A stretch of DNA of 64,000 bases from Tubiluchus corallicola (taxonomy: Eukaryota > Animalia > Priapulida): positions 372,001-436,000 of the forward strand of contig JAQGDQ010000138.1 of NCBI GenBank assembly GCA_030141605.1, given 5' to 3'. Position 1 is the first letter of the stretch, and every line of letters begins with the position of its first letter. Below, piece by piece: positions 30,997-61,800 of this stretch. Under the pieces are notes generated by a model. It was not told the origin of the DNA. It did not search any database and saw nothing but the letters and a program-made list of their open reading frames with translations. Made by a program: the position numbers and the translations under genes.

Positions 30997-31212
30997 CTGC
31001 GTCGCATTCGCCATTATACAACACTCTTAAAATCTTTCTTTCTACGCAAGCTTCAGACTTCATGATACATTCGTTGGGATAAGTCTTGCCATTTGAGGCA
31101 CAGACAGGATCATGTTCCAAGGTGCACAGTTGATGACATTTGCAAACAGGATTCCGTCTGTCATCCAGTTGACAAGCAAAGCCGTTTTCACATTGCACAT
31201 CAGCGCATGGAT
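30997..31212 (-). CDS. AGRN: agrin FS/Kazal domain 3
   Basis: DPCADVQCENGFAC...PVCASNGKTYPNECIMKSEAC; ttttag acceptor, gtaagt donor; 216 nt. Confidence 0.95.
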
Positions 31213-39544: not shown

Positions 39545-39781
39545 CACATTTGTTTTTGTACAGTACAGTGATATTTCGTTTGCTCTCACACGCAGCTTTG
39601 TTGAGTTCACACATATTATTATAATCCTTTCCATCCGAGCCACATACGACCGAGCTATCAGTACTGTCGCCATAGTCATAACACATCTTCGGACACATGC
39701 AATGAGCCGACTGGCCATCCGGTGACCGTTCACACTCAGCGCCGTACGAGCAGATCACTCCATCACAGGGATCCCTAGAAT
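39545..39781 (-). CDS. AGRN: agrin FS/Kazal domain 2 (internal acceptor form)
   Basis: DSRDPCDGVICSYGAEC...VCGSDGKDYNNMCELNKAAC; 237 nt, phase 1-1 using a weak aaag acceptor; donor gtatgt. Confidence 0.9.
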
Positions 39782-39845
39782 CTTTATTAAATAGATAACA
39801 ACAGTCAGTCAATGAGACAAGCAACAATGATGTTACAAATATCAT
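39782..39845 (-). CDS. AGRN: in-frame 5' extension of the FS2 exon encoding a signal-peptide-like segment MIFVTSLLLVSLTDCCYLFNK
   Basis: ATG in a caaaaATG context 9 nt downstream of a strong ttactttgtttatttcag acceptor (boundary 39854); hydrophobic core, in frame with FS2. Confidence 0.65.
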
Positions 39846-42030
39846 TTTTGTGCTCTGAAATAAACAAAGTAACTGCGGCAAGAAAGAAACTAGCCACTTT
39901 TTCCACTTCATCTCACGACTTGATTTGCATTGGAAGCAGTTAGCTCGCTTACTACTACATCCTTCAAAACGATACTCCCAACTATCATCGTTTCAAGGCC
40001 GTTTAAGGAGTCATAACACTTGTTACTCCATAGTACGTATCCATTATCAACATTCAACATTTGTCCGCCTGCCATGATGACAGCATTAACCAAAGTCCGA
40101 ACTAATGCAGAAACTTAACACATTCCACATTGTCTTCAATTTCACAGAGATGTCCTCAAGCACTCAGATAGCAATGTACTAACAGCACTTTGCCTATAAT
40201 CTCCTGCTCATACACCACGCAGCAAGCGCCAGTAGGCTTCCCCAAGTAGAGGAGAGAACTCTATATCTGTGAGTTGGCACTAAAGCCATGACAGAATAAC
40301 TGTTCTTGGCAGATAATACTACTTTTACAGCGTTTTCCACTAAACACCACAATTAAAAACTTAAAGGTCGGTTTTAGAAGGGCGTTTCAATAAATGAGAT
40401 TCACGTTTATGGCTTCACACTACTCAGTAGCTACGCCCCTAGCATCAGAGGCTCAGTTAAATGTTGCAGCGAAGATCAATATGCATTTAATAGCCGAAGA
40501 ACATCAACATCAGCGCTGCCTGAACTGATGGAATTATAAGTGCATTAATTTTTAATAATCGTCTTCTCAGATGCTCGCAAATGTGGCGTATTTGAGCAAA
40601 GAAATGGCAAGAAACGACTAACAGAACGGTTGGAAATTAGTGTAACTACAGGTAAAGTCAAGAACACTGACGACTAGATGGATGAGTATTTTTTTGTCTT
40701 TCATAATGATTTCAAAAGACGCCCTTTGAGAATATCTAGCCAACAACAATGTTCCAGATCGGTTTGGGCCTTGCTGTTCTGTCACTTCTGTTTGACTCTT
40801 TACGCTAATCTAACAACATCTTTACTAGTTCAGGACCTAGGCTTGATGATAATCCGATAAGCGGTTACAAAGTTAAATGAAATCAAGTCCGAAAAATTGC
40901 CAGTTTTGCCGCTTTTAACAGTTACTATTAATACTCAGTTTACTGAGTGATTGTGGGTCCATTGGCTGTTTTTAGTGAACTCTTCTAGTAAAACTAAAGC
41001 AATTACTATATTCAAGAAAGCCCCCAATTATATTATTATAATTGCTAAACTTGAATATGATTATGTAGTTATAACGTAACTCATTAACTATATACGTATA
41101 TCTATATCTATATGTGTAATGTGTATGTGTATGTGCATAATGCATATGTATATGTATATGAGAAATACTGTGGACCGAGGATAGTGTGTATACTGCATAG
41201 CAACGATTTCTTCTCAAAATGGACAGCGCGAACAATAATCCTGCTCTATAAATTATCCAGGGCGCTCGAAATGTCTGAAATGTCACTGACTCAGTTACAA
41301 TAAATGCCATTAGATTTATGTTGTCTTGGTTTCAGTATGAGCCTCTATGAATAAAGGCTACAGATGATATATTAAATTGGAAGGTGTTAAATGAAGGCAC
41401 GATTATTCCTGAAGTGACCACAGATAGTCTAGAAGACGTCTGGCTCTATTATGGTAGCTGCACGTACTCACGAAGAGAAAACTTTATTGGTCTTAATCAA
41501 GAATACTTCTCACGCTTAACATTTTCTTTGAGATCAACCCTTCCTATTATTGAAAGTGAGAACACTTTTCATATTGAATATCACATGAAAGTTATATGAA
41601 GAAAAAAAACATTTGGAAAATTTTAAATGGCCATACACAATGGAAGGATGTGCAAATTTCATGAAATCACTAGTTTGCCGAATTAATGGCAATTTGAATC
41701 ACGAATTCACAACAAATAACAGCCGACCATCTACAGCTGCAACTCAGCTTTGCTAAATGCAAATTTGTATTGCTATCTACCATTACTCATAATCTTCCCT
41801 CATCAAACTAACCTACTTTGCGTTTTGAGTGGAATAAGTCATGACGAATGAGTTTAACTCATCGCCGCTTCTGTAAAACCATTTTTTGCCTCCCGAACCT
41901 CAAATACAATGCTAGAAATTCGAGTTGATTGTCTTTACTACAGACAAAGCAAGTACCTGTAGGAATTTCAGAAGAATTAGTCTGGAAGCATAGCCGATAA
42001 ATTTAGTCAGACCACACCGGAATGTCAAAA

Positions 42031-42424
42031 GGCTGCGCGGAAAGTTTGGTACTAGTAAGTTTGGTATTGGTAAGTTTCGTACTAGTAAGTTTGGTACTGG
42101 TAAGTTTTGTACTAGTAAGTTTGGTACTGGTAAGCTTGGTACTGGTAATTTTGGTAGGAGGAAATTTTGGTACCAGGAAAATTGGTACTAAGAATTTTTG
42201 GTACAGGGAAAATTTGGCACAAGGAAGGTTTGGTACTATCAGAATATGTTATATATAACTTACTTGAACAAGTTATAGAGGCTCATATTGTTGCATTGGT
42301 TTTTTGTTTGCTTCCTCTTTGTTTGCTATTTGTCATTATTGTTGTTGTTTGTCTGTTTCTTGCTCACTCTTTTGTTGTGATTACTGCCACCACCACCACC
42401 AACACCACCACCACCACCACCACC

Positions 42425-42458
<34 letters not shown>

Positions 42459-43462
42459 TCTAAGCTGTCATCATATCACCATATTTACTTTTGTCATTTT
42501 CTTGCTGTTGTTCTTGTTGTTTTGTTATTGTTGATGTCATCGTTGTTGGTGGTGCTGCTGTTGTTGCTATTGTCGTTGTTGCTGATGTTGTTGTTATTCT
42601 TGTTGTATGTTAGTTCTTGTTTGCAGTTTCTTTATCCTCACCATCATAATCATCATCATTATCATTATAATTATAATTATCATTATCATCATCAAGAAAT
42701 ACAGTTTTCACTTCCTACCGTGGGCCATGCAGGAAACCATACTATGCCTCTGCAGGACGTTTCTGTCCAGTGACGTTATTAGCGATTACGGCCATGTTCT
42801 TATCTCGGTTTGGTAATTTTTGTAAAAAGAAATAGAGTGATTTTTCCTGAAAAAAACAAGTTGGCCGAGCTTTTGGAAAATTTGCATGGTGAGTTGGAGA
42901 CCTTTCATTTTTGGCTAAAAGAATTCTCAAATGTACCTGCATGAGTGGATAATCACGGATAAAAATTAAGCTGTCATGCACTATTAATTACAGTATAATG
43001 TTTTATGAACTTTTTAACAAACCAGACTTTCCTCGCACCAGATTTCCTCCCTATTGAACTAAACTTCCTTATTTTCTAGTTGAAACAATTGTTTCATACT
43101 GAGATATAGAAATGTTCTCTTTTTCGTTTAGTACCAAATTTTCCAGTACCACACTTTCTTAGTATCAAATTTTCCTCGTACCTTATTTTCCTAGTAACAA
43201 AACTTCCTTGTACCAATATTTCATAGTACTAAACTATCCTGGTACCATACTTTCCTAGTACCAAATATTCCCATACCACATTTCTTAGTACAAAAATTCC
43301 TTGTACCTAAAGATAATAGTACCAAATTTACCTGTACCAAAATTACTGGGTACAAAAAATTCCTGGTACCAAATTTTCCCGCTACCAAAACTTCCTCGTA
43401 CTAAAATTACTTATACCAAACTTACCTGTACCAAACTTATTTGTGCCAAACTTTCCTACATT
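42031..43462. mobile_element. foldback/Mutator-like element with tandem-repeat TIRs
   Basis: Left arm has 15-bp GGTAAGTTTGGTACT and ~16-bp GGAAAATTTGGTACTA units; the right arm carries their reverse complements. 8-bp direct repeat TGTCAAAA at 42023-42030 and 43463-43470. Confidence 0.8.
42388..42695. repeat. compound microsatellite (CAC)n(CAT)n / (TGT)n / (ATC,ATT)n
   Basis: Directly visible trinucleotide runs inside the foldback element. Confidence 0.95.
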
Positions 43463-43929: not shown

Positions 43930-44139
43930 CACAAGGTCTCTCTTTTTTGATGCGGATGTTGCGTTGTTGTGTACATCCTGCAAGTCGTAGCTGACATTCG
44001 CTAGTATAGGTAACCCCATCATCGCCGCACACAGGTGCAAATACATTTGAACAAGTTTCCACGCATTTACAATAAGCTGTCCCATTATCGTGTAGCAAGC
44101 ATTGCGACCCAAACGCGCAATATTTCACCTCACATGGCT
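43930..44139 (-). CDS. AGRN: agrin FS/Kazal domain 1
   Basis: EPCEVKYCAFGSQC...PVCGDDGVTYTSECQL...RPCG; tttcag acceptor, gtaggt donor; 210 nt, phase 1-1. Confidence 0.95.
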
Positions 44140-50522: not shown

Positions 50523-50558
50523 CTGGTGGTGGTGGAGGCTTATAAGAAAATGGTAAAT
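50523..50558 (-). CDS. AGRN: agrin 36-nt Pro-rich linker microexon (xLPFSYKPPPPP)
   Basis: Acceptor gttttttttcag, donor gtaggt; phase 1-1, open, and joins FS1 as ...PPPPP-E-PCEVKYC. Confidence 0.85.
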
Positions 50559-52682: not shown

Positions 52683-52854
52683 ATTTATACAACACCATAC
52701 ATCCAAGAATAAGGCTTAGCAGAGCCAGTAATAAACACACCATGTACAGCTTATTATTGTTTTTCTTTTTCACCATAGCAACCACCAACAGTGGTGGCAC
52801 ATTGCCTTTTTCCGCTGCCGGAATAGTTAGAGTTTGGGTTCTCCACTTCGTCAT
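52683..52854 (-). CDS. AGRN: candidate alternative first exon of agrin, type II transmembrane anchor
   Basis: ATG (A at -3) opens MTKWRTQTLTIPAAEKGNVPPLLVVAMVKKKNNNKLYMVCLLLALLSLILGCMVLYK. A basic cluster precedes a ~20-aa hydrophobic stretch. The exon ends at a phase-1 GTACGT donor that fits the next (phase-1) exon. Confidence 0.7.
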
Positions 52855-55800
52855 TATGAAACTTTCAATGTGTGCAAGAATGCGCTAGAATCAATCACAA
52901 AAATTTCACAATTATAAATAGATTATACGAGCAATGACTTTGTCCTTTCGTCTAAACATTCGAATCGTGTTTTTTCACTTTTTGCAAGTAAGAAGAGCAG
53001 CGAACACAAAGTACGAAAGCTTCTTCCAAGCAGTACTAAAATAATTTTCTGTTTTAAAGGTAAATATGCTGTTGTTAAAACGAGTCGCAAACAAACACAA
53101 AGATGAATGCAACGGAAACAAGCAAGCACCCAACTAACCCATAATTAGTTGTTTCTAACCATAAAAAGAATATTACTACACGACTTTCTCGCTCAAATTT
53201 CACAAAATTACTATTTAAATTTCTAACACAAAAGGTCATCGAACATTGTGGTCGACCGCGCTAAAATTGAGCTGTTACCTCGCATTCAAGCGGGCCTACT
53301 CAAGTAGGCCTACACACACGTCAAGTGAAACCATTGAGTCGTACAGTTAAAAGCTTCTACCGCATTGTCTAACGCGTCATGTCCTAATTCAGGCACTCGC
53401 TATCCTTGCTGGCATTTGCAGATGCAGAAGCTTGTTCAAAGCTACCAACATTAGGTCTTTAACTTGCAATGTTCTTCATTAATGCAGTAAATCTTAATCA
53501 GCACAACATTCACTAGTTTTTCAAAAACCTTCTATCCCTGAAATGGTTTCAGTTGCAGCTACAGAAGCACTAGAAGTTAAAAGCTAAAATTAATAAACTC
53601 CAATCACACTTGATTCACAGCAAATTCCTGTTTTTTGTACGTTTTCTCAACGCGCAATAAGTCTACTGCAAAGTTCTGTTTGCATGTCACGCAAGGCTAG
53701 TAGACTGAAATATATCTGCACAGTCAACACCCTGAGTTATTATTTTCCGCACGTCTGTGTACCTGGACAGGTGAACGAGAGGCGATGCTGCGGTTTTGCA
53801 CCTGATAAACCGCTCGTGAACTTCGTGCATGCCGTATAAATACAATTAGCTACCTTAAAGGGAAATTACCTATTCAGCATCCTGCCATACGTACACATGT
53901 AGTTAATAGTCAATTTTTACAAGATAACTTCCGGGGGCCTGCACATAACAAGCTAATAACTGCTGCAGAACAATTCCAACATGTCTTATTGTAACGACAA
54001 CATTATACAGGAGTAGTAAATCAACTGCTAATAGTCAGGTGGTTTATTCAGATCGCCGACGGGAAGAAATGCTCACCACGAATTCCAGCAAAATATCCGG
54101 TGACCTTGGGTTAACAAAAACCATCATCCTGAAATTTATCACTCAAAAATTCATCACGGATGATAGATTTCCTACTCAATTTGATCGGTACGTCCCATTT
54201 TGTGTAAAAAGATCCCTTGAAAATTAATATTCAATCACGAGTTCTTCATTATTTTGGTAAACCTGCAATCAGAGCCATGCCACCTGTTTACAGGCACTCG
54301 TAGCGAAGCACGCATGGAACTTTCTATTAAGAGTGATTTGATTGAATTTGACGTCCTCACAAGAGCATTATGTTGAATGAATTATGATCATCATACCAGT
54401 CTTTCCTGTCCTGATGCACAAATATTACCTTACAAATGCCTCGTTTGACCTTAAATGGTTCGAATAACTTATAGTTTAACCTTTATAGTTTTCATATAAC
54501 TTTACATTATATTATTCACTTATAATAAGAAAAAAATCAATAATGTTTCGGGATCACAGAAAATAAATACGCAAATAGTCTACGGTAATAATAAGCAATT
54601 ATGCCATCGTAATTTATAAATTGCATAAATTATGCAAAGACACAAGCGTTTGTTTGCACTGGTAATAACAATGTACCGTATACTCGGTAAACAGCACCTA
54701 ATATATTATACAGCTTAGTAAACAGTAGTTGCTGTACAGAATTTTACTAAACTCTTGCAATAAAATGGGCATGTAAAATCGTTCGAGAACACATTAATCG
54801 CAGCGAGAAAACGCTAGTGAAAACGGCCTTTACATACTGCTGAGAAGCAAGAGCATCAAGAACACAAATAAAAGAAATAAAGTTAGCATAGAATACTTTA
54901 CTCATAAGCACAATAAGAATTACTCATTAATTATTAACACTAAATACAGCTACAGGCAGCTTAAATCAACGTATTTATATAAATGCAAAATATCAATTGA
55001 TTTACAATAAACCAAAAAGTAGGTGAAATATATTACGCAACTAGTAACAATTAACGAATTTTTTTCTATTGCATGCGTTCGCCAAAAACGACTGTAGATG
55101 AGAAAAAATGCAGTTAAATAGTTAAATGCTGTGGATAGCAAATAGAATCAATTGCACCTTGTCACAGTACAGAACCGGTAATTATGTATCCCTAGTATAA
55201 AAATAATTTGACTCCCTTTTTCATAAACGCAGTGTCACCTACTTGTGATCTTACAGAAGAAATAATCATATCAGCAACTGAAAATGATATAAAAATCAAG
55301 ACTGGTGAGTAATGCTCAATAGTGTATAAAAATATGGCAAATTGCAAATATGTCCTTGCAAAGCGGTTAAAGGGCGTAAATCATGAAGTGGTAATAACAG
55401 CATAACAAAAAATTGAGTTACTATCAATGATCCTGCTACAATTCCGTGCAATTAAAAAATATCGCGTTCAGCAAGCCCACGAACACGCCGAACCGTTTCG
55501 GAATGCCAGGTAAAAACGACAAAACAGAATGTTCCTTATACCGCCCAATATGTCACTTTACAAAACGCCCCTCAGTGGTGAGGGCATGAAAAGAACACGT
55601 TTAAAAAATTCCAGGCCAAAAACTTGCTAAAATGAAGAACAACCTGGCATGAAAGCCACACAGTGTGAGCTACGTCGCTGATACAATGGATGAAAAAACA
55701 GCTTGAGAGTAAAGATAAATATGCTTTTCAACAATAATGCATTGCAGCTACTTTACTTTCCAAGCACTTGCTCCAATCCAACATTATACTTAAGCCTTGA

Positions 55801-58800
55801 GTCAAAGGCAAATCTCAGACCAGTATTTCTATAGAGAAAAGCTGTTACAACAGTAGTTAGTAGTTACGGGATTAGCGTCTGACTATTAATTTTCTCATTT
55901 TATGGATTATTATGGGGTCGGTCAATGGTCATCATGCATTTTCTCTTAGTGTTGACCTTCAAGATCTTTTGGACCTGAATTAATATTATCTCACTGTACT
56001 ACCAAAGAAGTGAAAATTCTGTAGTTTTAGCACAATTTTAAGTAAACATTTTGACACTGTAAACGTAGTTGATTAAATATTTTCTCCATATTATATAATC
56101 ATAATTATATAGTTATATATATTCTGGCATATATATTTCTAACTACGCTCACAAATAAACATAAACATCACAATTATAATTAGCGCATTTGGTGAGTTAG
56201 GTTTTATCTTGCACTCTGAATTGTCTATTACAATAAAAAACAATAATAAATGTTTGTCTTTATATCTGCTGAAATTTCATCACAAATTTGGCTGTCACTT
56301 ACTAAAAACAAAAAACGAAGCTTGCCACTAAATTATCAAACTTTAAATCTACTCCCACCGAGTCCCCATGACTCCCATCCCATCAATTTAATCCGTACGT
56401 AGCTTTCCTCAGTAACTATAACTGATACAGTTAAAGGCCACTAAAATCGAAAGCCACGTTTGTGGCGACATCGTTTGGCGGAGAAGGCAAATTTTTTTAA
56501 CTTGCGAATCTCTCCTTACAGCGGAAAGGTGGAGCTGCATGCCTGTCATTATATAAGTTAACTACCACAGGTCATGTTAATAACCCATTTTATTTACGTC
56601 GCTCAAAAACTGCCTCTATTAATAATCTTGAGCTGCACAACGATCAGGAAACCAAGCCCATAACGTTTTTAGATCATCGTTTTATATCTTGTAAAATTCA
56701 CTAGACAGACCCATTACAGGTAAGTCCCTTTTGGCCATTTCGTACAAAGAAATGTAAAAATAATAATAGCCCACTCTAGGGCTCGGAATCACACATAACA
56801 AACGCACAAATTACTACTGCCAAAATAATAAAGAAAGAACCGTTAGTGCTCAATTATTCCAAATTCAAAGCACAATTTAAGCAACATTAAATACAATCAT
56901 GACATCAAATGAGTGTCATCAATATGCTATGAGACTTAAGAACAACACAAGTTAGCCCATGAAGACCAATTTAAATTTTTTTCAACAACGCTTGAATAAA
57001 AAAATCTCCGAATGTACTTCCAATCACTGAACGTACTTCCAGTCAGATCCATCCATGCAGGTTCATGGTTTACTAAGTGAACTACGCTCCGCACGGTCTA
57101 CACGCGGAAGAAGCAAAAATTTACTTGCATAATATTCGTTGAATCGCACCAAGCATATGTTGTTTCTGGGAAACCACCCAGAGCTGTACCTTCCAGTTAA
57201 TAATCACGCATATTCGTCTTATGAAAGGCCAATAATATACAAATCTTGTTTGTGTTTGCACATGGAGTAGCCTAATATACTGTAAACTTGCACGGCGACT
57301 ATCCCTACACTACAGTATTAGTCCAAATGCAATAATCAAATAAAAACGCTGCAGTAAAGTTATCCTAAATACATGAAGTTGTTGCATAAGCTAATCGCAA
57401 AAAACACCATAGCTCAGGCGCCATACTTAATTTCACCTAATCCAGGCATCTGAAAATCAAAACAAATCTCATTACAAATACAAACACTCTAGACTTTAGT
57501 CATCAGACAGTTATTTTAAAATGCTGATGGCTTTTAAGCCAGTCAGATTAGAGAACTGCAAAAACAACGACGAATAATTTTCGAAGCAAACGTCTTTTTT
57601 GCGGAAAAATCTCGAATAACACAGAAGTGAAAGCTGCGTATAAGTTGTAACATGGTTCGCACTGGTCGTAAAATTAGATGACAAGCAAATTTACGGCCAG
57701 TTTATCTAAATTAAGTACAGTCAGCCACTTTAATGCATATATAAAGTTGTTCAGTTGCTCCATAAAAACCCCAAAACTGAAATTCAAGGAATTAAAGGAA
57801 CACCACCTTACTACGTTAATTATAATTTTGGTAGATAGCGACATTCACTGAAAACAGCAAATGACGGTAGTGCTGTAAGCAGTAGTGGTTTAAGTGCTTA
57901 TAAAACACGAAAAAATAAAGACAACAGAACTTACAGAAGCAAGTGCCACTTTAAATAATGGAGGAAGATCACAAGGCAGACCGTAAAATTTGTCATGGCC
58001 TTCTTGTACTCTTTATTACTTTACTGCTCAATAAGTCATAGATGTGGCCCCATGAATGTAAATATGAACGTCTTGGGCAAGTTTGATTTATTGTTTGCGA
58101 AAAAATAAAACTATATAAAATTATATAAAGTTATATTATATAAAATACAGGATTAGATTTGGTCCTGCAGGCTGCAGCCTAAATGCTAAAGCATGCCGCC
58201 ATTAATGGACAGTGGCGCCATCTCCTACTAAAACTAAATCCAAGTTTTTATACTGATTACTATGCAATTTACTATACTATGCACGTATCGGAAGTGGTGC
58301 TGACAAGCCCTGGCATAGCGGTGTCTAGTTTTTTGCTGAATTAACTGCTGTGTTTACCTGTCTTAAGGGCAGATTTCTTTTATTTTAGAGTTCAGCCTGC
58401 CCAATGTTTACAATAGACGTAATGAGCATATGATGATGATGACTATGTAATTTTAATCTGGACTTGTCGTTTTTGCGTCAAAAGTTGGTCTGTGTAGCAT
58501 TCAAATGCGAAAAATTTAAACTGGATTGTTAAAGTTGCTAAACTACGTGGGCTACTTCAGTGGTCAGGCAGCAGAAAAAAATGCAAAAATACCTTACAAG
58601 AAAAAGACTCCATGGGAAAGTTTTCTCTCACGGATTACCTTGGACAAAGCGTTTAGCAACTTCGAACTCGTTCAAATGATTTCAGAGGCAGACAATAGGG
58701 TCAGAGCTCGTCTAAGTTTGTGTCAATAACCAAACACATGCCATGAATAGATAGCAGCCTCTAATTGGTTAAACTACTATAAGCTTATTTGAGTCTGAAT

Positions 58801-61800
58801 AGCCCACACATAGGCATAATGTTGACAAAAACTGCTGGCTAAAATCCTCAAGCAAACAATCTAAATCTCGACAGTGGCGGTGAAATAAAGGTAACCATAC
58901 AGCCTGGCAGCATTAAATTTTTGATTAATGTAAACCAGGCTCCATGATTTTAAAGCACATCAGTGAATTAACAGACGGATAAGGCTTTTAACTTGACGCA
59001 ATTCTGAGAAAATATCCATCCGACACAGATTTAAAGGAAAGGATAAGCCATTTATCATGTTGGGTTTATTTTGCCGTTATCACTTAAACTTAGAAAAATA
59101 TAACAAAGAACTGTCTATAAACAGTCAGAATTGCAAAACTGTCTATGAACCATAAAATTAACTTATACTACGGCGGTTAGTTCAGCAGAATTCAGTACCA
59201 CATAAAATTACATATAGGAGTAAACACGAGTAATCAGTCTATAATACTGAGGAATGTTCGTCTGAAAGACTAGATTTTGAGCCTCGTATTGCTTCATACA
59301 TGCATATAAGCGACCAACACACGGTAACTAATAAACACGTGGTTAGCGTGAAGCGCATTGAAAGATGGGATAATGTATTAAGAGTTCAAGTAGTTGCTTT
59401 GGGCAGATGCTCAGAATTCTTCGAGTTTCACCTCATCATGACACAGATATCTAGAGTTGTTACTCATCAGTAGTACAAAATGAGAGAAACTAAAAAAGTG
59501 TACAAGGTCACTCAGGCCTGTAATCCAGTTAGCGCGTTTGCCGTGTGAAGTGCTTACAAGAAAATATAGTCTATATTCCTATTTTATAATGTTATCTGAA
59601 ATTGATTAACTTTACCAGTATCTAGTGTACATAAAATGAATTTGTTTTTTAATAGTCACCTAACAGTATGAGTATGTTGTTAGCCGTTAGCAGTCTTAGC
59701 TTTATATATCGAGTCTTCTGTTAACTTTGACAATACATCTATTTTACTATTGTCTCCAATCATTTCCAGGTTTTGCACCTAAAGTAAATTTTATCTGGAT
59801 GGATGTATTGACTTCGCGACGTTTGTAAAGACGATACACACGTGTATAGAATGTGGTGCCAAGCAATAAACGTAACATGTCATCCCACAAATGACACGAC
59901 ATTACATTTATGGCTGTTTACACGTTGGCAGATGTCTTATATGACTAAAGTAAACACCATAACGTCCAGTTCACAACTAACGCGCCGAGGGAAGCCTGAT
60001 AAATTCAATTACAACTCGAGGATTCTGCCCACTTATGGCACACGTTACAGATTTTAATGGGAATTGGCACTCAACAACCGACAGCTTTGTAATTTTAGGT
60101 AATTGCGTTGGCTACTTTGAAGACTGTGTAACAGTTGGTCTGATTCTAAAGAAGAGTGTAATAGCAAAGTGATGCTAGTAAGCTAATAATCACAAACAAA
60201 AGCTTTGGCTTTTTCATAGAATAAGAGAAAATGATTTCCACCCTGGTTCGAAACCCGTTCACTGTTAGCTTAGTATAGACTGTGGGCCTTTCCTTGTTAG
60301 CTGCTGGTGAAGCCCATTGAAAAAATTCTAGAAGGAAAATGATGATAAACAATGTTGCCACGATAAGCATAATTAAAACAGAAAAATGATCGAGGCACCT
60401 GCTTGTAAGTTGCAGACGCGCAGAGTTGATCAAAGGTCAAATAATTTCAACAAATGCATAATTCAAGTTGACAGCAAAGCAAAAACGCTATCAGTAGATG
60501 AAAACTTGTATCCAGGTTAAATAGTGTACATCAGTAAGTAAAAGAAGAGCCCGTTTGTCTGTCTTGCGGTTTTTAGACAAAGCCATCCTGATGCGTTTTC
60601 TAATGTAGACTAATGTATTCTAAAAATTAAATTCTTCACGCCGAAGTCACTAAAGTTAGTGAGATGTTTAAGATGAAAAATAAAAGCGAAAGAGGTGCAG
60701 TTTAATAACTAATAAGATTAGTTATTACGTGATTTTTACAGGGCTGAAATTTACAGACTAATTCTCTAAGATAAGTTTAGACAACAAACAGCCTCTTCGG
60801 ATGTACAACCAGGATTCGTATGATGAATGAAACCTCCAAGAGAGAGTACTGAACCCAGAGGTAATACTTTCATTCACTAACCACCATTGCCGTTGTTTAA
60901 CTTCAATCGCTTAGTACACACGTGACCATAGGGTTATTTGAACTCATTTCGTTTGCATCAGTGAATGTTCAATAATTAAGGTGATGAAATCAGGTTTAAA
61001 GCAGCACCATAATGGGTTTCGCTTGATGCTAATGGGCGCTGCCGTGGTTTCAGAAAAAATCCTCTGAATTCCTAGGTGTTGCACAAAACGAGCAAAACTG
61101 AGATTCTTAGTATATTCGAATTGTAAACGAGATTATGGTGCACACTTACAACACTTGACGAAATAACACACCACATAGCTGACATGTTTCGACAAAATAG
61201 ATTCAATTATCTGCACCTTGTAAACTGTTACGCCGAATTTTGCCGACAAAGTCGAATTCCCTAACTTCTGAAATTTGAATTCGATGTTTTACATGTTTAG
61301 CTCATGCTAGTACTTTTCTAGTACCACAACTGTATCATGCGTCTATTATGAGGCTAAACAACTTAAAATTGGTCATTATTTAAGCATTAAGACCTCAAAA
61401 AATTTGAAAACTATCAGACAGTCAAATTAGTCTAACCTTAGGGCGTAGAAAGCTATTCGTTAAACACCTGTTCTCTCCACTAATTAGTGCAGAACACTGC
61501 TAATAGAAGCGCAGGCACACCGTTTTTCAAATCAATTTTCATTGGTATGTATCTATTTAAACTAAACATACAGACATGTGAATCGTACTGCATGTTATGA
61601 CAGTAGCATTCAAAACTTGAAAGGAAACATTATAATATATGTTGCGACATTGAGAGAATCTTATTGCACTCATGCTGTATACAAGTGGTTACTCCTACTA
61701 TCTAAAGAAATTCTTTTGATATGACTCAGAAAAGAAAATGCTAAAGTTTCGGATCACCCAGGCACATTACTGATTAATGGACCAACACCCTTATTTCAAC

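What the first reader, a model, noticed from the sequence alone, without database searches (positions are those of the whole stretch)
39545..39854. Dual-acceptor FS2 exon: a strong out-of-frame acceptor serves an internal signal-peptide start (short secreted agrin)
Seen: the strongest acceptor (ttactttgtttatttcag, boundary 39854) lies 73 nt upstream of the in-frame weak aaag acceptor (39781). Splicing FS1 to 39854 would shift frame and hit TGA. However, 9 nt after that acceptor is caaaaATG opening MIFVTSLLLVSLTDC-CYLFNKDSRDPC in frame with FS2. Inference: a further N-terminus, in which an upstream exon from an internal promoter yields a secreted agrin lacking NtA and FS1. Acceptor choice would therefore be coupled to promoter choice.
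Basis: partly seen in the sequence, partly recalled or inferred. Interest (0 to 1): 0.7.

Follow-up and report, generated by a model that had tools for sequence, protein, structure and literature searches.

The report
Third, secreted start of invertebrate agrin
One exon of this worm-like animal's agrin gene (a matrix protein) carries its own start codon and a predicted secretion signal that recur across invertebrates, so the gene likely makes a short secreted agrin besides the membrane-bound one, although the promoter and splice choices behind it are untested.

Summary
The coordinates hold: CAG acceptor 39854, ATG 39845, AAG acceptor 39781, frameshift stop 39807. The in-frame extension is real coding sequence. 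Of 81 homologous FS2 domains, 56 are preceded by Cys-Tyr/Phe-x-(F/Y)-P, mostly after a hydrophobic stretch. They come from insects, a crustacean, bivalves and a nematode. The residues before the invariant Cys follow the signal-peptidase rule. Splicing FS1 to 39781 gives the linker length of the Priapulus agrin model, the closest named relative. So this is likely a dual-use exon and a widespread third agrin N-terminus. It is already in database gene models, but nine paper searches on or near the topic found no description. Not shown: use of 39854, any leader exon or internal promoter, and promoter–acceptor coupling. No data covered the exon's 5' end, a strong acceptor near the ATG is not conserved, and 15 of 22 related loci lack the internal AG. 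The window's other start is transmembrane; no NtA exon was found. The mature chain would begin with an unpaired Cys of unknown partner. The scan had not noted this before.

The parts
39545..39781 (-). FS2 core exon (phase 1-1, 237 nt), follistatin/Kazal domain with 10 Cys; the part shared by both isoforms
   Evidence: a spliced contig joins 39545 to FS3
39781..39784 (-). weak internal acceptor AAG|39781, likely used by FS1
   Evidence: score -3.1; linker length equals Priapulus, bee and beetle models; 15 of 18 FS1-type linkers have 3 residues
39782..39800 (-). predicted mature N-terminus Cys-Tyr-Leu-Phe-Asn-Lys; invariant unpaired Cys at 39800-39798
39801..39845 (-). ATG 39845 and predicted 15-residue signal peptide (cleavage after Thr-Asp-Cys)
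   Evidence: modelled as a helix, residues 2-16; SignalP was not available
39846..39872 (-). strong acceptor CAG|39854 with its T-rich tract; out of frame for FS1, on a codon boundary of the signal-peptide frame; use not shown
39909..39911 (-). second in-frame ATG, 22 codons upstream; usable only if the exon extends beyond 39854
43930..44139 (-). FS1 exon (phase 1-1)
50523..50558 (-). 36-nt proline-rich micro-exon between the TM exon and FS1
   Evidence: matching stretch in the Priapulus model
52683..52854 (-). coding part of the type II transmembrane (SN-like) first exon
   Evidence: 25 of 78 columns identical to the Priapulus N-terminus, BLAST score not significant; covered by a contig of run X1 at 52729-53048
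30997..31212 (-). FS3 exon, downstream partner of FS2

Best explanation
The FS2 exon is likely used in two ways: transmembrane-type transcripts would splice FS1 to the weak internal acceptor 39781, while a second class of transcript would include the upstream extension and start at ATG 39845, giving a predicted secreted agrin that begins with Cys-Tyr and lacks NtA, the anchor and FS1. Shown by sequence and calls: the sites, the frames, the stop, and the coding-type conservation of the extension across protostomes. Inferred with high confidence (about 0.9): the secreted isoform exists, and the signal is cut just before the invariant Cys. Inferred (about 0.8): FS1 uses 39781. Inferred weakly (about 0.5): a non-coding leader exon splices to 39854, removing upstream ATGs. 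Any FS1-to-39854 product would carry an early stop and be degraded, so frame alone could enforce the pairing without an active promoter-splicing link. The spare Cys at residue +1 most likely forms a disulfide with another chain (inferred, untested).
For: (1) 81 of 151 proteins scored 50 or more against the FS2 core. Of these, 56 have Cys-Tyr/Phe 4-10 residues before [DN]PC, 18 have FS1, and 7 have neither; 48 of 53 testable extensions hold a hydrophobic stretch. The motif precedes 0 of 112 other follistatin starts. (2) Before the Cys, position -1 is small in 49 of 52 and -3 small or aliphatic in 51 of 52, but -2 is small in only 25%; the core has its own 10 Cys in 50 of 52. (3) Named carriers include RefSeq models of Plodia, Mya and Saccostrea, and Cacopsylla, Nesidiocoris, Soboliphyme, Mactra, Mytilus and Cyprideis proteins. 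(4) In 22 distinct metagenome loci the frame is open for at least 24 codons upstream. Changes in the motif codons fall mostly on third positions (846 of 1,225 pairwise differences), as in the core (1,910 of 3,063); the loci are related, so these are not independent events. (5) 39 of 56 extension-type proteins read on into the downstream intron, so extension and FS2 are contiguous in unspliced DNA. (6) FS1-type proteins share the last three linker residues with their nearest extension-type homolog: 22 of 45, against 10.3 +/- 2.8 in random pairings, 1 of 10,000 draws reaching it. The Priapulus FS1-type model and unnamed P0002 (extension type) are 88% identical in the core and are the window's two closest hits (63% and 62%). 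(7) ATG 39845 has an A-rich context, and 39854 would exclude five out-of-frame ATGs within 200 nt upstream.
Against: No transcript evidence for 39854, 39781 or the ATG. The internal AG is present in only 7 of 22 related loci although the peptide is kept, so dual use is not universal. A strong acceptor near the ATG is not conserved (16 loci, p 0.21; only L025 has one, also 9 nt before its ATG). No leader exon was located. The 15-residue signal is short and has no basic n-region. FS1 can also join FS3 in frame, and a Mya model does so (P0160). The search query contained the extension, so 56 of 81 overstates its natural frequency. A 73-nt upstream strong acceptor should compete with 39781, and how it is bypassed is unexplained.
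Confidence: 0.72

Rival explanations
1. The secreted isoform is real, but the extended exon is itself a first exon. Transcription would start just upstream, translation at 39911 or 39845, and 39854 would be an unused look-alike in T-rich coding or leader sequence.
For: The frame is open to 39992 with an in-frame ATG at 39911 that adds a basic n-region. No strong donor lies in 39860-42900. The upstream acceptor is not conserved. Many homologs have long in-frame extensions.
Against: 39854 is in the top 0.09% of AGs under the gene's own matrix and sits 9 nt before the better-context ATG. The extra 22 residues have no counterpart in the alignments to P0001 and P0002. No TATA motif lies in 39846-41500 (weak evidence).
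Confidence: 0.25
2. 39854 is used, but the leader comes from a promoter shared with the transmembrane form (skipping the TM, micro and FS1 exons) or from trans-splicing. There would then be no internal promoter and no promoter-acceptor coupling.
For: No leader exon was found in the FS1-FS2 intron. An acceptor a few bases before the ATG is typical of spliced-leader sites (recalled, not tested). L025 has the same 9-nt spacing.
Against: The paper search for spliced leaders in priapulids listed 3 papers, none about priapulids by title or abstract start (listing only). The X1 contig runs unspliced across the region upstream of the TM ATG.
Confidence: 0.15
3. FS2 belongs only to the secreted isoform here. 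Transmembrane transcripts skip it (FS1 to FS3), and AAG 39781 is only the Lys-Asp codons.
For: The skip is in frame. Mya model P0160 has NtA-FS1-FS3. 15 of 22 loci lack the internal AG. 39781 is weak and would be the gene's only AAG acceptor among 19.
Against: The closest named relative (Priapulus XP_014677973.1) has TM-FS1-FS2 with the same linker length. 18 FS1-FS2 proteins were found, and their linkers match the extension tails. The X1 contig passes FS2 to FS3 without a break (a weak hint, since contigs drop rare variants).
Confidence: 0.15
4. The hydrophobic extension is an artefact of reading a polypyrimidine tract in frame.
For: 68 of 3,464 AGs have an ATG and a hydrophobic stretch upstream by chance. 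Several other introns of the gene read as hydrophobic. The conserved Phe-Pro-Pro-Asp/Gly resembles TTYCCNCCAG.
Against: Invariant Cys-Tyr, the signal-peptidase pattern, third-position-biased change, and retention of the peptide in loci that lack the AG.
Confidence: 0.03

Closest known systems
Vertebrate LN- and SN-agrin (PMC2189804, abstract read)
   Same: One agrin gene, alternative N-termini that set localisation (basal lamina versus cell-associated), apparently under transcriptional control.
   Different: Both vertebrate forms join common exons upstream of the follistatin repeats. The form here starts inside the second follistatin exon, has neither NtA nor an anchor, and would begin with a free Cys.
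Arthropod TM-agrin of Apis and Tribolium (PMC2874008, passages and parts 1-2 of 3 of Table S1 read)
   Same: TM, FS1, FS2 order and a three-residue FS1-FS2 linker, as predicted for the window's 52854 isoform.
   Different: The parts read list only the TM form for insects and no signal-peptide-FS2 form. A sea-urchin model with signal peptide and no NtA was treated there as needing correction; whether it is the same kind was not tested.
Priapulus caudatus agrin-like XP_014677973.1 (P0057) and unnamed P0002
   Same: Closest sequences (62% and 63% in the FS2 core). P0057 mirrors the TM-micro-FS1-FS2 path; P0002 mirrors the extension.
   Different: P0057 is a partial prediction. P0002 has no ATG within 160 residues of its Cys, so its start must come from another exon or a non-annotated start.
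Database agrin models that start with signal peptide + Cys-Tyr + FS2 (Plodia XP_053616834.1, Mya XP_052821290.1, Saccostrea XP_061196855.1, Cacopsylla UniRef entries)
   Same: Same N-terminal architecture.
   Different: Automatic annotations under the plain name 'agrin-like'; their splice sites were not examined here.
C. elegans AGR-1 (PMC1939731, passages read)
   Same: Secreted invertebrate agrin with a signal sequence, reported without NtA; one isoform by 5' RACE.
   Different: Its first Kazal domain starts at residue 173 and the region was later called NtA (PMC2874008 Table S1), so it is not the short FS2 start.
Hedgehog/Spitz-type N-terminal Cys palmitoylation by Hhat/Rasp (PMC8061759, passages read)
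   Same: Cys exposed as residue +1 after signal cleavage.
   Different: A basic residue within the first seven is required; the window has one, but only 22 of 54 homologs do. The review notes that none of 87 predicted human candidates other than the hedgehogs has been shown to be a substrate.

Membership tests
Agrin | Tandem follistatin/Kazal domains followed by laminin-EGF domains | tested here: met
   Nine follistatin-type domains and two laminin-EGF exons in order on the minus strand; Kazal_2 above cut-off for FS1 and FS2
Agrin | C-terminal EGF and laminin G domains | tested here: inconclusive
   EGF-type exons at about 9262, 6500 and 5700; laminin G exons were not scanned against Pfam
Agrin | Closest relatives are agrins | tested here: met
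   Best named hit is Priapulus agrin-like; other named hits are agrin or agrin-like, or unnamed
LN-agrin (secreted, NtA) | NtA domain after the signal peptide | tested here: not met
   The isoform has none. An NtA profile from six proteins found no window fragment below E=1, while finding 12 fetched proteins, five of them in its training set. Sequence beyond the window could not be searched.
SN/TM-agrin | Uncleaved type II anchor joined to FS1 | tested here: not met
   The FS2 start has a signal-peptidase pattern and no FS1. The separate exon at 52854 fits this type.
Cleaved signal peptide | Small residues at -1 and -3 after a hydrophobic core | tested here: met
   49 of 52 and 51 of 52 homologs; window Thr-Asp-Cys; best 9-residue hydropathy 2.84
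Cleaved signal peptide | SignalP call or N-terminal sequencing | not testable with these tools
   No predictor or proteomic data on hand
Alternative-promoter isoform | Own transcription start and first exon | not testable with these tools
   No raw reads or 5' ends; no candidate located by scan
Dual-use exon (internal acceptor inside a coding extension) | Extension contiguous with the core, plus an in-frame acceptor at the boundary | tested here: met
   Window sequence; 39 of 56 homologs contiguous; AG present in 7 of 22 loci
Dual-use exon (internal acceptor inside a coding extension) | Junction reads for both uses | tested here: inconclusive
   The only spliced contig ends at 39752, short of both acceptors
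Hhat/Rasp substrate | Free N-terminal Cys after signal cleavage | tested here: met
   Predicted only, from the cleavage pattern
Hhat/Rasp substrate | Basic residue within the first seven; tolerated residue 2 | tested here: inconclusive
   Window has Lys at 6; 22 of 54 homologs comply. Tyr at position 2 is not among the residues the review lists as tested.
Hhat/Rasp substrate | Palmitate incorporation | not testable with these tools
   Needs a labelling assay

The most novel reading that the evidence does not exclude
Protostome agrin has an ancient third N-terminus whose mature chain starts with an invariant, unpaired Cys that is palmitoylated by Hhat/Rasp, like Hedgehog and Spitz. This would give a lipid-tethered agrin in place of the laminin-binding and transmembrane forms, selected by competition between two acceptors in one exon.
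Probability: 0.1. Interest if true: 0.8.

Novelty: new variant of a known kind. Interest (0 to 1): 0.5.

Why it matters
Agrin is described with two N-termini (NtA-secreted and transmembrane), and its role in invertebrates is largely unknown (PMC2874008). A third start kept from insects to bivalves, nematodes and priapulid-like worms would explain how lineages annotated only with a transmembrane agrin make a secreted one. It also warns that 'signal peptide without NtA' models are not always prediction errors. The invariant free Cys gives a concrete handle to test: a disulfide partner or a lipid. The acceptor pair in this species is a compact test case for how a weak downstream acceptor wins over a strong upstream one.

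Tried and rejected
No whole genome is held, so exons beyond the window could not be sought. Sequencing runs: no RNA holder listed; two runs were found. X1 (RNA by guess) gave one spliced contig over 39545-39752 and none on 39753-41050 or on FS1; a filter leaves records out, so these holes prove nothing. The contig end at 39752 is 29 nt short of 39781 and coincides with a third codon position, so I read nothing into it. X2 behaves as genomic DNA. A near-length homolog search found no candidate. The Atlas search with homolog P0093 gave only Kazal/follistatin clusters, all under 0.9. No FS1 exon was found upstream in any of the 33 loci, with flanks of at most 6 kb. Loci dropped before counting: L001, L004, L016 and L020 (same sequence as another locus over the region printed), and L027-L033 (FS2 start not readable), leaving 22 of 33. 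Six of the 22 had no ATG 21-50 codons upstream and were left out of the acceptor test. The first NtA profile was contaminated by wrong segments and was rebuilt. One search's tail labels were too loose; one search's 39 of 56 replaces them. Acceptor 39774 (TAG) was rejected: it is out of phase with the FS1 donor and scores -6.4. The AlphaFold model (mean pLDDT 87.8) gave no coordinates, so Cys pairing could not be measured. No complex prediction was obtained, so whether two chains pair through the Cys is open. No extra conserved odd Cys was seen by eye in the printed first 1,500 columns of an alignment of ten long agrins. Paper searches found no description of this isoform; most subscription journals are not in the library. 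PMC3927612, PMC3927609 and PMC10381214 (agrin passages read) do not describe it. Part 3 of Table S1 of PMC2874008 and its other supplements were not read.

Full report
Setting. The minus strand of the window holds an agrin gene: follistatin/Kazal exons from 44139 downwards, two laminin-EGF exons and EGF-type exons. Upstream lie a 36-nt micro-exon (50558-50523) and an exon with ATG 52854 that encodes a type II transmembrane segment. This path mirrors Priapulus caudatus model XP_014677973.1, which with unnamed P0002 is the closest FS2 match (62% and 63%). The animal is therefore likely a priapulid or near relative (inference). An NtA profile found nothing in the window, and no genome is held to look further.

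Observation. A matrix trained on 18 other acceptors of the gene ranks 39854 in the top 0.09% of AGs and 39781 near the bottom of the true sites; a generic model ranks 39872 above 39854. FS1 joined to 39854 ends at TGA 39807-39805; joined to 39781, or skipping to FS3, it stays in frame. The frame is open further upstream than reported and has a second ATG at 39911. A hydrophobic read-through before an acceptor is common (68 of 3,464 AGs), so the claim rests on conservation.

The extension is coding and ancient. A search of 1.84 billion representatives gave 150 best hits. With P0001, 151 proteins were rescored against the FS2 core alone, and 81 reached 50 bits. Of these, 56 carry Cys-Tyr/Phe shortly before [DN]PC, usually as C-Y-x-(F/Y)-P-x4; 18 carry FS1; 7 carry neither. 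The motif precedes none of 112 other follistatin starts. Carriers with names include hemipterans, a moth, an ostracod, four bivalves and a nematode, with divergent versions in flatworms. The query held the extension, so the proportions are biased. In 22 distinct metagenome loci (of 33 fetched) the motif codons change mainly at third positions, as the core does, and the peptide is kept even where no AG is present.

Signal cleavage and the spare Cys. Position -1 before the Cys is small in 49 of 52 homologs and -3 small or aliphatic in 51 of 52, while -2 is free: the signal-peptidase rule (rule recalled; counts). The mature protein would start with that Cys. The FS2 core has its own ten Cys in 50 of 52, so this one is spare. 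An inter-chain disulfide is the simplest use (inference). Palmitoylation by Hhat/Rasp is possible, since Hedgehog and Spitz are modified on such a Cys (PMC8061759, passages), but only 22 of 54 homologs have the required basic residue. I put it near 0.1.

The internal acceptor. FS1-type proteins have three residues between the last Cys of FS1 and [DN]PC in 15 of 18 cases, as do the bee and beetle sequences in Table S1 of PMC2874008; acceptor 39781 gives three. Those residues match the tail of the nearest extension-type protein far more often than chance (22 of 45 against 10.3 +/- 2.8). In 39 of 56 extension-type proteins the frame runs on into the next intron, so extension and core are one stretch of DNA. 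Residue -3 has a G-starting codon in 48 of 49 nine-residue motifs. Against universality: the AG itself is present in only 7 of 22 loci, many of them closely related, and a Mya model joins FS1 straight to FS3 (its two models may be separate gene records). A few proteins (P0010, P0070, P0135, P0141, P0168) show intron-like sequence at this position, so in some lineages the signal part is absent or a separate exon.

What is not shown. The one spliced contig (run X1, about 98% alike) joins FS2 to FS3 and stops at 39752, short of both acceptors. X1 also covers the TM exon. No donor scoring above 5 lies in 39860-42900, and a strong acceptor near the ATG is not enriched in 16 related loci (p 0.21; L025 is the one match). 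So the leader exon, the internal promoter and the coupling remain hypotheses. Even if 39854 is used, the early stop in FS1-to-39854 transcripts could make the pairing look coupled without any promoter-splicing link.

Comparison and novelty. Vertebrate agrin has LN and SN starts (PMC2189804, abstract); insect agrins were described as TM only (PMC2874008). The start described here works like LN/SN switching but is neither. It is already present in automatic gene models, and I found no paper on it in nine searches (two of these were on side topics), in a library that lacks most subscription journals. The scan's own notes held nothing on it.

Verdict. Observation confirmed; interpretation partly supported. 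New variant of a known kind: a likely pan-protostome third agrin N-terminus. Confidence is 0.72 in the dual-use exon model as a whole, about 0.9 in the secreted isoform and about 0.5 in use of 39854 by a leader exon. Interest 0.5.

Noticed in passing
window 52683-52854 and 50523-50558 (-): Transmembrane first exon and a 36-nt micro-exon; joining the TM exon directly to FS1 would create a stop codon, so the micro-exon is obligatory for that isoform.
   Followed up: partly
window 53467-53667 (-): A contig of run X1 lies here, about 94% alike, upstream of the TM exon; probably 5' untranslated sequence of the TM transcript.
   Followed up: no
window 42042-42236 and 43129-43457: Two arrays of 15-16-nt units in opposite orientation flank CCA, TTG and ATC repeats in the FS1-FS2 intron; possibly a small inverted-repeat element. 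Four of the five strong donor-like sites in this intron lie inside it.
   Followed up: no
window about 58300-58450 and 59030-59110: Very high contig depth in run X2 and many loose ends; likely high-copy interspersed repeats.
   Followed up: no
P0160 versus P0028 (Mya arenaria): One model has signal-NtA-FS1-FS3 without FS2, the other signal-Cys-Tyr-FS2-FS3; FS1 and FS2 may be mutually exclusive there.
   Followed up: partly
L025:1-140: A locus with a strong acceptor exactly 9 nt before the ATG of a divergent Cys-Phe extension, as in the window, but with no internal AG.
   Followed up: partly
P0001 (Cyprideis torosa CAG0890931.1): The model joins a TPR-repeat protein to an agrin that begins with its own signal-like segment; likely a gene-prediction fusion.
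   Followed up: no
window 25457-25366 and 25154-25040 (-): The sixth follistatin domain is split by a phase-0 intron, unlike the other single-exon phase 1-1 domains.
   Followed up: no
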